From NCBI RefSeq assembly GCF_057098645.1, contig NZ_CM169472.1: a DNA stretch of 64,000 nucleotides. The stretch is one strand, 5' to 3'. Shown here in pieces: positions 28,792 to 30,188 of the stretch (positions within the stretch are counted from its first letter, which is position 1; each line of letters starts with the position of its first letter). A program made the translations under genes and the position numbers. The notes beneath the pieces were generated by a model that was given only the letters and a program-made list of their open reading frames with translations, made no database searches and was not told the origin of the DNA.

Positions 28792-29355
28792 TTATTCATT
28801 GATCAGTTTCTGCGCCAGCGCAATGACATGATCTACCTCTTCCGGCGTCAGGCTGCCGTCCTTTGCCCACTGAATTTGCCCAGCTTTATTCAGCACCAGA
28901 ATGGTTGAACTCTGCTCCGGCAAGCGCCAGGCAACGCGTCCCAGCCCATTGCCATCAATAACGAATTGCGCCCACGGATAGCGGCGTTTATTTTTTTCGA
29001 TTTTGCCAACAACAAAATAGCCACTACCAAAGATGGCATCATCAGTGTTCACAATGGTGGTGGGCTGAAAACGATCCTGCGGAAAGTTTGCCGCTTCAAC
29101 CGCTTTAATTAACAGTGAGTTCTTTTTCTTCGCTGACTTACGCCCGGCGATATACCGGATAATGCGGACTTTTCCCGCCAATTGTGTGCTGTTCCACTTT
29201 TGGTAGTGAATTTCGTCGTCGCTATTCAGAAGCAGCTCGCCGCCTTCCTGAATATAAACAGGGGTAACCGTTTTGCCAGTGACGAAATTGTGTGCCTGCA
29301 CACCCGGGGCTAAGAGCATGATAATCAGCGCAATAATCAAACGAGATGACATCAT
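28792..29355 (-). CDS. YtfJ-family periplasmic protein (paralog of E. coli YtfJ)
   Basis: 187 aa, signal peptide, strong similarity to remembered YtfJ (HNFVTGKTV..., GKVRIIRYIAGR, TTIVNTDDAI, QWAKDGSLTPEEV). Confidence 0.7.
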   Translation of the reverse strand: MMSSRLIIALIIMLLAPGVQAHNFVTGKTVTPVYIQEGGELLLNSDDEIHYQKWNSTQLAGKVRIIRYIAGRKSAKKKNSLLIKAVEAANFPQDRFQPTTIVNTDDAIFGSGYFVVGKIEKNKRRYPWAQFVIDGNGLGRVAWRLPEQSSTILVLNKAGQIQWAKDGSLTPEEVDHVIALAQKLINE

Positions 29356-29363
29356 TGCTCCGG

Positions 29364-30188
29364 TTATAGCGGAAAACGCGAAATCAGCAGCTCTAAGCGC
29401 TGGCGAATATCGCTATCCAGCGCCACCGGTGCATCATACGACTGGCGGTTTTCCATATCATCCGCCACCATGTCGTCGTGTTTATCCCCCATCAGGCCAT
29501 TAATGGCGGCGAGGAAACGGGAAATCTGTAACGCCTCTTTATTTTCAGGATCAAGCGATCTTAAGGTGTCGTAATAAGAAACCTGCTGGCTGATGATTTT
29601 TCGCACATCATGAAATTCCCTGCCGGTTAGTCGCGGTTTGGCAATTATCTCTTTCAGGGCATGCATTTGCTTTTGCCGATAGGCAATAAAACCGCTTACG
29701 CTTTCTAACTGGCTATGGCGTAATGAATAGTTCACCAACGACCAGACCGGAGAGCTTAAATAAATTCGTAACAGGTTGCCGTAATACGACACAATATTTT
29801 TCTTACCGTTACGAAATCCGTCCTGAAAACGTCCCAGAAAAACGGTCGTTTTGCCGAATAAAAATCCGGCCTGATGCTTCTTTAAATACAGCCGTTGCGC
29901 AAAACGCAGGTGCTTGTAGCGCGCTCGCATGTATTTAAATTGTTTGCGCTCATCAGCAGTCAGCTCATCGCCTTTGGCTTGTTTGCGAACTAAACGCAGT
30001 AATTCCTGACGATTAACGCCATTGAGCCAGAATTGCAGGCATAACGCGTAATTATCATGAATGATTTCGGTGGTACAACTTAGTGCAATAGTCGACGGCA
30101 AACTAACCTGTGCATCAACGACATCATCTTCTTCAATCGCAACAAATAGACGCTCGCTCGCCTCAAGCGGGAAATATTTTCTCATCAT
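29364..30188 (-). CDS. hypothetical protein (274 aa), no recognisable motif
   Basis: ORF in operon context, 1-nt overlap with yghQ stop; no signal peptide or TM evident; function unknown. Confidence 0.6.
   Translation of the reverse strand: MMRKYFPLEASERLFVAIEEDDVVDAQVSLPSTIALSCTTEIIHDNYALCLQFWLNGVNRQELLRLVRKQAKGDELTADERKQFKYMRARYKHLRFAQRLYLKKHQAGFLFGKTTVFLGRFQDGFRNGKKNIVSYYGNLLRIYLSSPVWSLVNYSLRHSQLESVSGFIAYRQKQMHALKEIIAKPRLTGREFHDVRKIISQQVSYYDTLRSLDPENKEALQISRFLAAINGLMGDKHDDMVADDMENRQSYDAPVALDSDIRQRLELLISRFPL

What the first reader, a model, noticed from the sequence alone, without database searches (positions are those of the whole stretch)
28792..30188. YtfJ paralog and a 274-aa ORFan embedded in the export operon
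A signal-peptide-bearing YtfJ-family protein and an unannotatable 274-aa soluble protein (no motif I recognise) are co-operonic with the flippase and the permeases, with a 1-nt overlap between yghQ stop and the ORFan start. They are candidate periplasmic carrier or modifying components of the same system.
Basis: seen in the sequence. Interest (0 to 1): 0.5.

Follow-up and report, generated by a model that had tools for sequence, protein, structure and literature searches.

The report
CHAD-like protein in sphingolipid export operon
The "orphan" 274-residue protein is a conserved, divergent relative of phosphate-polymer-binding CHAD proteins that is always made together with a lipid flippase and kinases in sphingolipid-producing bacteria, and its neighbour is a secreted, cysteine-free copy of YtfJ, so both are untested candidate parts of how E. 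coli modifies and exports its little-known sphingolipid.

Summary
In detail: two ORFs on the minus strand (274 aa, 29364-30188; YtfJ-family, 28792-29355) lie in a tightly packed seven-gene string, yghS-yghR-yghQ-274aa-ytfJ2-lptF2-lptG2. The yghQ stop and the 274-aa start overlap by 1 nt.

The window is E. coli. The region is present in 4109 of 5426 complete genomes.

In 66 of 79 loci the gene follows yghQ directly, usually with a stop/start overlap. It travels with two or three thymidylate-kinase-like P-loop proteins (YghR/S/T). It has no signal peptide, so in E. coli it is cytoplasmic, not a periplasmic carrier.

YtfJ2 is a true paralog (55% identical to core YtfJ). It carries a signal peptide, has a thioredoxin/TlpA-like fold without any cysteine, and occurs only in Enterobacterales.

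Best reading, inferred: a phospho-headgroup-binding partner of the kinases and flippase, plus a periplasmic accessory. Moderately interesting; a new variant of a known kind.

The parts
29364..30188 (-). 274-aa CHAD-like protein ('Ybl138' or hypothetical protein in databases); basic (pI 9.4), all-helical, no signal peptide
28792..29355 (-). YtfJ2: signal-peptide-bearing paralog of YtfJ; cysteine-free thioredoxin/TlpA-like fold with a conserved basic loop IAGRxSAKKKN
30188..31537 (-). yghQ, MOP-superfamily (Wzx/MurJ-like) flippase; translationally coupled to the CHAD-like gene
   Evidence: PF01943/PF13440 on the identical-context protein. Weak NCBIfam MOP flippase hit. Immediately upstream of the CHAD-like gene in 66 of 79 loci, with a 4-nt overlap in 35 and a 1-nt overlap in 12.
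31583..32341 (-). yghR, thymidylate-kinase-like P-loop protein
   Evidence: Walker A GCDGTGKST and a DRFPQ motif. TIGR00041 hit of 32 bits, far below the 83-bit cutoff. Family profile best matches thymidylate kinases in the PDB, E 1.8e-7.
32373..33086 (-). yghS, thymidylate-kinase-like P-loop protein, first gene of the string
   Evidence: Promoter-like site upstream at 33164-33136.
33260..33952 (+). yghT, third paralogous P-loop protein, divergently transcribed
   Evidence: Present in 65 of 79 loci that carry the CHAD-like gene.
27691..28761 (-). lptF2, LptF-like permease of the sphingolipid locus
   Evidence: TIGR04407 319 bits, above the 230-bit cutoff. Caulobacter homologs are required for sphingolipid transport (bioRxiv 10.64898/2026.04.12.717747).
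26615..27694 (-). lptG2, LptG-like permease (RefSeq start; the longest ORF extends to 27775)
   Evidence: TIGR04408 308.8 bits, above the 240-bit cutoff. RefSeq coordinates.
26583..26617 (.). 16-bp-stem hairpin between the convergent spt and lptG2 genes; likely a bidirectional terminator that ends the operon
22487..26580 (+). aasR-cerR-acpR-spt: sphingoid-base / dihydroceramide synthesis genes, convergent with the export string
   Evidence: RefSeq names. Pfam families on the identical-context proteins. Biochemistry of the BL21 orthologs ECD_02851-02854 (PMC9386255).

Best explanation
What it is (well supported):
- The 274-aa protein is a cytoplasmic, basic member of a divergent branch of the CHAD superfamily: two four-helix bundles carrying the H/K-x2-R-x3-K/R and G-x3-D motifs in each half.
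- Its gene is the fixed downstream, translationally coupled partner of the MOP flippase gene yghQ.
- It travels with two or three thymidylate-kinase-like P-loop proteins (YghR/S/T) in sphingolipid-producing Proteobacteria.
- YtfJ2 is a secreted duplicate of the core periplasmic protein YtfJ. It has a thioredoxin/TlpA-like fold that has lost all redox cysteines, and it was added to this module only in Enterobacterales.

How it most likely works (inferred):
1. YghR/S/T phosphorylate the head group of the ceramide or sphingoid lipid made by the adjacent aasR-cerR-acpR-spt(-yghO) genes, at the cytoplasmic face of the inner membrane.
2. The CHAD-like protein uses its conserved basic surface to bind that phosphate-rich head group or a phosphoanhydride chain. 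It acts as an adaptor or scaffold between the kinases and YghQ, with which it is made in fixed proportion.
3. YghQ flips the anionic lipid.
4. LptF2G2, probably powered by LptB as in Caulobacter, extracts it from the inner membrane.
5. YtfJ2 acts on the periplasmic side as an accessory that recognises the anionic head group through its basic loop.
For: Fold:
- AF2 pLDDT 92.3.
- Foldseek finds TM 0.93-0.96 to proteins that UniProt calls CHAD in Sphingomonas, Acetobacter, Gluconobacter and Zymomonas.

Sequence:
- 7 of 38 family members hit Pfam CHAD below threshold.
- P0208 aligns to CHAD model positions 28-224 of 228, i-E 0.0016.
- A family profile aligns to RcCHAD 6qv5 exactly at both motif regions, E 0.2.
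- R88, G119, D123, H193, R196, H237 and D238 are invariant; K92, R95 and K197 are nearly so.
- In CtCHAD the equivalent H-x2-R-x3-R residues bind polyP (PMC6537752).

Context:
- yghQ lies directly upstream in 66 of 79 loci. A YghS, YghT or YghR homolog is present in 64, 65 and 53 loci.
- Stop/start overlap is conserved from E. coli to Novosphingobium.
- spt lies within 10 kb in 48 loci. Nearly all the remaining loci are from Sphingomonadales and Acetobacteraceae, orders with known SPT carriers (PMC9386255).

Kinase link:
- Other lineages fuse two CHAD-like domains to an APH-type kinase (P0233, P0235).
- In Sulfolobus, two dTMP-kinase-like paralogs plus a CHAD protein form the PPK3 operon (PMC12995831).

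YtfJ2. It lies directly downstream of the CHAD-like gene in 47 loci, all from Enterobacterales.

LptF2G2 role: Caulobacter genetics and pull-downs.
Against: - No experiment links any of these proteins to a lipid.
- The E. coli protein itself has no Pfam CHAD hit even at E 10. hhalign of the family against E. coli YgiF found nothing.
- Only part of the polyP-binding motif is kept: S200 sits where the third arginine would be in the second half.
- Characterised CHAD domains bound polyP and not other phosphate ligands (PMC6537752).
- Sphingomonad glycosphingolipids are not known to be phosphorylated, and there the module sits next to glycosyltransferases rather than spt. The substrate could therefore be a glycan or another lipid.
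- Several solo copies have no recognisable partner within 10 kb (L018, L028, L062, L072, L076).
- Distant members carry signal peptides, so the cellular side is not fixed across the family.
- In this very strain the ceramide synthase gene yghO is broken.
- The YtfJ2 basic loop lying at the former CxxC position is read from secondary-structure order, not from a residue-level superposition.
Confidence: 0.45

Rival explanations
1. The CHAD-like protein is a genuine inorganic polyphosphate binder. Together with YghR/S/T it forms a PPK3-like polyphosphate- or oligophosphate-handling unit, and its link to sphingolipids is only positional, or consists of supplying phosphoryl groups.
For: CHAD fold. 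The partners are dTMP-kinase-like paralogs, as in the Sulfolobus PPK3 operon, which also encodes a CHAD protein. pitB (phosphate transporter) lies next to yghT in Escherichia, Citrobacter, Hafnia and Pseudocitrobacter (9 loci). Basic pI in most members.
Against: No PPX, SixA, PPK1 or PPK2 gene lies in the E. coli locus. The YghR/S/T profile is no closer to the PPK3-type structure group (2plr/5h70, E 0.054) than to ordinary thymidylate kinases (E 1.8e-7). Conserved translational coupling to a membrane flippase is unexplained by a purely cytosolic polyP role. pitB adjacency is confined to a few genera.
Confidence: 0.15
2. The 274-aa protein is a structural or regulatory cytoplasmic subunit of the YghQ flippase (plug, gate or assembly chaperone). 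Its helical bundle resembles CHAD by descent but no longer binds phosphate.
For: Stop/start overlap with yghQ in nearly all loci, which argues for fixed stoichiometry. It falls below the Pfam CHAD threshold and the motif is partly eroded.
Against: The basic residues and the G-x3-D / H-D motifs that define the CHAD binding surface are the most conserved positions of the family. Fusion to kinases in other lineages. Solo copies without yghQ exist.
Confidence: 0.2
3. The 274-aa protein is an enzyme that remodels the head group (for example a metal-dependent phosphohydrolase or phosphotransferase) and uses the invariant His/Asp residues.
For: Invariant H193, H237, D238 and D123, and nearly invariant H105. 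CHAD was originally proposed to chelate metal or accept phosphate (Iyer & Aravind 2002, as cited in PMC6537752).
Confidence: 0.1
4. One reading: both proteins are periplasmic carriers or modifiers that shuttle the lipid from the permeases outward.
For: YtfJ2 has a signal peptide and sits between the CHAD-like gene and lptF2. The periplasmic steps of bacterial sphingolipid transport are unknown, and LptC2 is confined to Caulobacter. Distant CHAD-like relatives do carry signal peptides.
Against: The E. coli and all other proteobacterial CHAD-like proteins lack any signal peptide or hydrophobic segment. YtfJ2 has a thioredoxin fold, not the beta-jellyroll of LptA/LptC or another known lipid-carrier fold. 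YtfJ2 is absent from the module outside Enterobacterales.
Confidence: 0.1

Closest known systems
CHAD domains (Pfam PF05235): RcCHAD 6qv5, Chlorobium CtCHAD 3e0s, Streptomyces PptA 6rn5
   Different: Below the Pfam threshold, with no hit at all for the E. coli protein. 9-18% identity to the solved CHADs. The second-half motif has Ser in place of the third Arg. It adds an N-terminal helix plus a conserved acidic 'EEDD' segment. It is coupled to a MOP flippase in sphingolipid or glycolipid loci, not to PPK/PPX/TTM enzymes. PolyP binding is untested.
PPK3 operon of Sulfolobus acidocaldarius (saci_2019/2020 dTMP-kinase-like pair plus CHAD protein saci_2021; PMC12995831)
   Same: Several paralogous thymidylate-kinase-like P-loop proteins are encoded together with a CHAD-fold protein.
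   Different: No ppx or sixA. All three E. coli paralogs keep the Walker A and DR motifs, so there is no obvious regulatory-only subunit. No specific sequence affinity to the PPK3 structure group. A flippase, Lpt-like permeases and SPT genes are present instead.
Caulobacter crescentus sphingolipid locus (CC_1152-CC_1168: spt, acpR, cerR, aasR, bcerS, cpgA-D, flippase CC_1166, LptF2/G2/C2)
   Same: The same synthesis genes. A MOP-type flippase candidate and LptF/G paralogs lie inside the locus. The anionic (phosphorylated) ceramide product needs a kinase step before export.
   Different: Caulobacter uses a DAG-kinase-like ceramide kinase (CpgB) and cytidylyltransferases. None of its locus genes is described as a CHAD-like, YtfJ or YghR/S/T homolog in the papers read. 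LptC2 is Caulobacter-specific, and YtfJ2 is Enterobacterales-specific.
YtfJ (E. coli b4216 family, TIGR01626 / PF09695)
   Same: 55% identity over the full length, a signal peptide, and the same conserved IAGRxSAKxKN loop.
   Different: Core ytfJ lies next to ytfK, cysQ and cpdB and is in 5409 of 5426 genomes. ytfJ2 is full-length in 4120 genomes, all examined copies lying in the sphingolipid locus. The function of either copy is unknown.
TlpA/DsbE/ResA-type periplasmic thiol-disulfide oxidoreductases and peroxiredoxins
   Different: No cysteine at all, so no redox chemistry. A lysine/arginine-rich loop occupies the place where the CxxC motif is expected.

Membership tests
CHAD domain (PF05235) | Two four-helix bundles related by pseudo-twofold symmetry | tested here: met
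CHAD domain (PF05235) | Match to the Pfam profile at family threshold | tested here: not met
   No hit for the E. coli protein even at E 10. 0 of 25 close and 0 of 38 diverse members reach E 0.001; 7 of 38 reach E 0.1. The best member, P0208, has i-E 0.0016 and 18.9 bits over model positions 28-224 of 228.
CHAD domain (PF05235) | Conserved H-x2-R-x3-R type basic residues that line the polyP-binding surface in both halves | tested here: inconclusive
   First half: K85-x2-R88-x3-K92, plus R95. Second half: H193-x2-R196-K197, but S200 where the third Arg is expected. The register with RcCHAD was confirmed only by a non-significant alignment, E 0.2. No electrostatic surface could be computed because model coordinates are not exposed.
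CHAD domain (PF05235) | Binds inorganic polyphosphate | not testable with these tools
   Needs purified protein and polyP binding assays such as those in PMC6537752.
CHAD domain (PF05235) | Encoded with, or fused to, polyP enzymes (TTM, PPK1/2, PPX) | tested here: not met
   None is annotated within 10 kb in E. coli. The partners are YghQ and YghR/S/T. Fusions are to APH-type kinase and cytidylyltransferase-like regions.
YtfJ family (TIGR01626 / PF09695) | Profile match above the curated cutoff over the full length | tested here: met
   211.8 bits against a cutoff of 151.1, profile positions 1-183 of 184. PF09695 E 9.6e-58.
YtfJ family (TIGR01626 / PF09695) | A second copy beside the core ytfJ gene (paralogy) | tested here: met
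   Median of two places per E. coli genome. Core ytfJ shows about 67% DNA identity and is present in 5409 of 5426 genomes. Protein identity is 55%.
TlpA/DsbE/ResA thiol-disulfide oxidoreductases | Thioredoxin-like fold | tested here: met
TlpA/DsbE/ResA thiol-disulfide oxidoreductases | CxxC (or peroxidatic Cys) active site | tested here: not met
   YtfJ2 has no cysteine, and none is conserved in 23 orthologs.
PPK3-type polyphosphate kinase system | Two or more dTMP-kinase-like paralogs encoded with a CHAD protein | tested here: met
   YghR/S/T match thymidylate kinases and accompany the CHAD-like gene in most of the 79 loci. The operon precedent is in PMC12995831.
PPK3-type polyphosphate kinase system | Specific relatedness to the PPK3 clade and its PPX/SixA neighbourhood | tested here: not met
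   The PDB group 2plr/5h70 (cPPK3 homolog) scores E 0.054, against 1.8e-7 for Thermotoga thymidylate kinase. No ppx or sixA is annotated nearby. No phylogeny was made.
Sphingolipid-locus LptF2/LptG2 exporter | LptF- and LptG-type permease pair encoded inside an spt locus | tested here: met
   TIGR04407 319 bits and TIGR04408 309 bits, both above their cutoffs. They are adjacent and convergent to spt. Function was shown only in Caulobacter.

The most novel reading that the evidence does not exclude
YghR/S/T, the CHAD-like protein and YghQ together form a previously unrecognised machine. It would build an oligo- or polyphosphate (phosphoanhydride) head group on a sphingolipid or related lipid anchor, hold it on the CHAD-like surface, and flip it outward. 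That would be a lipid-anchored polyphosphate or multiply phosphorylated ceramide on the surface of many E. coli and other Proteobacteria, with YtfJ2 as its periplasmic receptor.
Probability: 0.1. Interest if true: 0.85.

Novelty: new variant of a known kind. Interest (0 to 1): 0.55.

Why it matters
About three quarters of complete E. coli genomes carry a sphingolipid locus. Its synthesis enzymes have been shown to work in vitro, but the final product, its head-group chemistry and its export route are unknown. The papers read here on bacterial sphingolipid loci list the flippase and the LptF/G paralogs and do not mention the two genes in this finding.

Three results turn two "hypothetical" genes into a concrete, testable proposal for the missing head-group and hand-over steps:
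- One of them is a CHAD-fold (phosphate-polymer-binding type) protein.
- It is translationally locked to the flippase from Enterobacterales to Sphingomonadales.
- It is always accompanied by thymidylate-kinase-like proteins.

The work also widens the CHAD superfamily beyond polyphosphate granule biology. And it flags YtfJ-family proteins, which have no assigned function, as possible periplasmic anion-binding factors.

Tried and rejected
- Plain Pfam and NCBIfam scans of the 274-aa protein found nothing.
- Profile searches of PDB sequences with the close and the broad alignments gave only spurious helical hits: methylcitrate synthase and fish interferons. I rejected these as chance matches between helical proteins.
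- hhalign of the family against E. coli YgiF, a 'short' CHAD, gave no alignment. That test used a single sequence, so it is weak.
- The first genome-wide locus scan with the broad alignment failed for lack of a conserved stretch. A narrower alignment worked.
- NCBIfam on ten long fusion proteins was almost empty. The APH-kinase fusion came from precomputed Pfam hits instead.
- Context of a short metagenomic contig (L082) and of the signal-peptide member P0208 was uninformative.
- Neighbours of the solo copies (L018, L076) showed no recurring partner.
- I considered an HD-domain phosphohydrolase reading from the invariant H237-D238 and ranked it low, because these residues align with the CHAD G-x2-[H/N]-D motif.
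- I looked for a membrane-binding segment in YghR/S/T. Only an 11-residue hydrophobic patch was found, which is not decisive.
- Literature searches for yghQ/yghR, YtfJ and yghO found no functional study of these genes.
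Full report
**Where we are.** The window is E. coli chromosome. Bases 28700-30300 are 99.9% identical to E. coli O145 RM9872, and a full-length match occurs in 4109 of 5426 complete E. coli genomes. RefSeq annotation of that genome and the ORF list give this map:
- glcC and yghO (pseudogene), then aasR (fatty acyl-AMP ligase), an NAD-dependent epimerase/reductase (cerR), acpR and spt on the plus strand.
- Convergent to these on the minus strand: yghS, yghR, yghQ, a 274-aa hypothetical protein, a YtfJ-family protein, lptF-like and lptG-like genes.
- yghT is divergent from yghS, followed by pitB and gss.

The BL21 orthologs of the plus-strand genes have been shown biochemically to make 3-oxo-sphinganine through a dedicated ACP (PMC9386255). 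LptF/G paralogs in the Caulobacter sphingolipid locus are needed for sphingolipid transport and use LptB (bioRxiv 10.64898/2026.04.12.717747). Neither paper, nor PMC11324152, mentions the two genes of this finding.

**Observation.**
- Both ORFs are at the stated coordinates.
- The sequence ...AAATCCTGATGATGAG... shows the yghQ stop TGA sharing its A with the ATG of the 274-aa ORF.
- Spacing along the seven-gene string is 31, 45, -1, 8-11, 30 and -4 nt.
- A pattern scan finds no internal terminator above shuffle expectation.
- A 16-bp-stem hairpin at 26583-26617 lies between the convergent lptG-like gene and spt. A promoter-like site sits upstream of yghS.
- dN/dS against other Escherichia and Hafnia/Citrobacter orthologs is 0.07-0.10 for the 274-aa gene and 0.10-0.13 for ytfJ2.

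Both are therefore real, constrained genes. Co-transcription is inferred from spacing only.

**The 274-aa protein is not an orphan.**
- A word-indexed search found 344 relatives. The 120 listed were at least 59% identical, from Escherichia, Pseudocitrobacter, Hafnia, Serratia, Sodalis, Pantoea, Raoultella and others.
- An exhaustive profile search of 1.84 billion representatives found 308 clusters at E 0.001 or better, 92 of them at 1e-30 or better.
- A scan of one genome per species returned 79 loci in Enterobacterales, Xanthomonadales (Luteibacter, Rhodanobacter, Dyella), Carnimonas, Sphingomonadales and Acetobacteraceae.

**Fold.** With a 25-sequence alignment, AlphaFold2 gave an all-helical model (pLDDT 92.3, pTM 0.89).
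- After E. coli 'Ybl138' entries, Foldseek against AFDB50 finds proteins that UniProt already labels 'CHAD domain-containing'. They come from Sphingomonas, Acetobacter, Komagataeibacter, Gluconobacter, Zymomonas, Commensalibacter and Pseudomonas veronii, at 28-42% identity and TM 0.93-0.96.

**Sequence-level support is weak but coherent.**
- The E. coli protein has no Pfam hit.
- 7 of 38 diverse members hit PF05235 at E 0.1 or better.
- The member P0208 aligns to nearly the whole model, positions 28-224 of 228, at i-E 0.0016.
- A profile of distant members aligns to 6qv5 at both motif regions, E 0.2.
- The family's invariant or near-invariant positions are R88, K92, R95, H105, G119, D123, H193, R196, K197, N230, G234, H237, D238 and Y251.
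- These positions form two copies of a [K/H]-x2-R-x3-[K/R] ... G-x3-D pattern. That is the pattern whose His/Arg residues contact polyphosphate in CtCHAD (PMC6537752).
- The second copy has Ser in place of the third Arg.
- A half-against-half hhalign puts the motifs in register but is not significant (E 0.074).
- hhalign against E. coli YgiF alone found nothing.

I therefore place the family in the CHAD superfamily by fold, as a divergent branch that fails the Pfam family threshold.

**Cellular side.** The E. coli protein and all proteobacterial orthologs start with a hydrophilic, acidic N-terminus. Maximum 19-residue hydropathy is 0.82 and pI is 9.4, so the protein is cytoplasmic. More distant members do carry signal-peptide-like N-termini (P0196, P0208, P0255, P0262, P0181, P0265, P0217, P0224, P0235), so the side of the membrane is not fixed across the family.

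**Genomic company.** I ran tblastn of the E. coli locus proteins against the 79 loci.

| Feature | Loci (of 79) |
|---|---|
| yghQ anywhere in the locus | 69 |
| yghQ directly upstream, same strand | 66 |
| yghT | 65 |
| yghS | 64 |
| yghR | 53 |
| ytfJ2 | 48 (47 directly downstream; Enterobacterales only) |
| spt, acpR, cerR | 48 each |
| aasR | 47 |
| lptG2 | 46 |
| lptF2 | 44 |

- Among the 66 yghQ/CHAD-like junctions, 35 have a 4-nt ATGA overlap, 12 a 1-nt overlap and 6 no gap.
- In Sphingomonadales the conserved unit is yghS-(yghR)-yghT-yghQ-CHAD-like, followed by a GT4 glycosyltransferase, with no spt within 10 kb.
- In Acetobacter the CHAD-like gene lies among a GT4, a MOP flippase, two YghT/S-like genes and a GT2.
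- In Xanthomonadales the order is yghT | yghS yghR aasR cerR acpR spt yghQ CHAD-like, and Luteibacter has two tandem CHAD-like copies.

The core module is therefore kinase-like proteins + flippase + CHAD-like. SPT genes, LptF2G2 and YtfJ2 are lineage-dependent neighbours. Nearly all of these taxa belong to groups known to carry the Rhodobacteria-type SPT (PMC9386255).

A few solo copies have no recognisable partners.

**The kinase link.**
- YghR/S/T share Walker A (G-x-D-G-[ST]-G-K-S-T), D-R-[YF]-P-Q and A-R-K-P-D-H motifs. As a profile they match thymidylate kinases best (E 1.8e-7).
- Their TIGR00041 scores of 23-32 bits are far below the 83-bit cutoff. The RefSeq name 'dTMP kinase' for yghS and yghT is therefore doubtful.
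- Elsewhere the CHAD-like domain is fused, in two copies and behind a signal peptide, to an APH-type kinase domain (P0233, P0235). In a 2531-aa protein it is fused to a cytidylyltransferase-like region. It also occurs as a tandem pair (P0122).
- Independently, two dTMP-kinase-like paralogs encoded with a CHAD protein form the Sulfolobus polyphosphate kinase PPK3 (PMC12995831).

The recurring theme is a CHAD-type module working beside a kinase.

YghR/S/T are not specifically close to the PPK3 structure group (E 0.054 for 2plr/5h70), and no ppx or sixA is nearby. I treat PPK3 as an analogy, not as membership.

**YtfJ2.**
- It matches TIGR01626 above cutoff and PF09695.
- It is 55% identical to the core YtfJ, which lies next to ytfK, cysQ and cpdB.
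- Core ytfJ is in 5409 of 5426 genomes. Full-length ytfJ2 is in 4120.
- All orthologs carry a signal peptide that ends in A-x-A before a conserved HNF.
- The protein has no cysteine, so it is a redox-dead thioredoxin fold.
- The most conserved stretch, I-A-G-R-x-S-A-K-K-K-N, is a flexible loop between a strand and a helix, where these families carry CxxC. This placement is inferred from secondary-structure order, not from a residue-level superposition.
- A basic loop at that site suggests anion binding.

Nothing shows that YtfJ2 binds lipid. The fold is unlike the LptA/LptC jellyroll.

**Most likely mechanism (inferred).**
1. YghR/S/T phosphorylate the head group of the locus's ceramide or sphingoid lipid at the inner face of the membrane.
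2. The CHAD-like protein, made in fixed ratio with YghQ, binds the phosphate-rich head group and bridges the kinases and the flippase.
3. YghQ flips the lipid.
4. LptF2G2 (with LptB) extracts it.
5. YtfJ2 assists on the periplasmic side in Enterobacterales, which lack the Caulobacter-specific LptC2.

Shown here: fold, conservation, synteny, coupling and localisation signals. Not shown: any ligand, activity or interaction.

The main rivals are a true polyP/PPK3-like role, a phosphate-independent flippase subunit, and a head-group-remodelling enzyme.

**Caveat for this strain.** yghO, the homolog of the bacterial ceramide synthase, has a premature stop at codon 116 (RefSeq 'internal stop'). This strain may therefore make no N-acylated product, although the export string is intact and constrained.

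**Verdict.**
- The 274-aa protein is a new, divergent, context-shifted branch of a known fold family, not a categorically new entity.
- YtfJ2 is a new member of a known but uncharacterised family.
- Interest is moderate. The result gives two concrete candidates, and a phosphate-centred hypothesis, for the unknown head-group and hand-over steps of enterobacterial sphingolipid export.

Noticed in passing
window 20986-22125 (- strand): yghO, the homolog of the bacterial ceramide synthase / N-acyltransferase (ECD_02850 in BL21), carries a premature stop at codon 116 (Trp in an intact 380-aa copy). Otherwise it is 99% identical to the intact gene. This strain may therefore be unable to N-acylate the sphingoid base, although the rest of the locus is intact.
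   Followed up: partly
window 32373-33086 (-) and 33260-33952 (+): RefSeq names yghS and yghT 'dTMP kinase', but their scores against the dTMP kinase model TIGR00041 are 23-24 bits against a cutoff of 83. With yghR they form a separate three-paralog P-loop family (motifs GxDGxGKST, DR[YF]PQ, ARKPDH) that always accompanies yghQ and the CHAD-like gene. The name is probably an over-annotation.
   Followed up: partly
window 26583-26617: A 16-bp-stem, 10-GC-pair hairpin lies exactly between the stop codons of the convergent spt and lptG-like genes. It is a likely bidirectional terminator.
   Followed up: no
L042 9692-11800 and L051 9152-10816 (Luteibacter spp.): Two tandem copies of the CHAD-like gene follow yghQ. 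A metagenomic protein (P0122, 564 aa) fuses two copies into one chain. This repeats the internal duplication typical of CHAD at a higher level.
   Followed up: no
P0233 / P0235 (L084 10001-12931), P0256: Distant relatives are large secreted proteins: signal peptide + APH-type kinase domain + two CHAD-like domains (about 980 aa). One is a 2531-aa protein with a cytidylyltransferase-like N-terminal region and two CHAD-like domains. Their organisms and roles are unknown.
   Followed up: partly
L018 5946-6725 (Pluralibacter gergoviae, second CHAD-like copy at 9890-10804): A solo second copy of the CHAD-like gene lies about 3 kb from an OlsC/LpxO-type lipid acyl-chain hydroxylase gene. There is no yghQ or kinase nearby.
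   Followed up: no
window 10001-12000: G+C drops to 0.38 here, against about 0.52 around it. If the window is colinear with RM9872, this is the gap between a winged-helix regulator at the edge of a Flp/Tad pilus cluster (flanked by IS3 copies) and glcA. Colinearity there was not checked.
   Followed up: no
L087 (core ytfJ locus of E. coli): The core ytfJ gene sits beside cysQ (3'(2'),5'-bisphosphate nucleotidase) and cpdB (periplasmic 2',3'-cyclic phosphodiesterase). This is a phosphate-ester context, which fits an anion-binding role for the family's basic loop.
   Followed up: no
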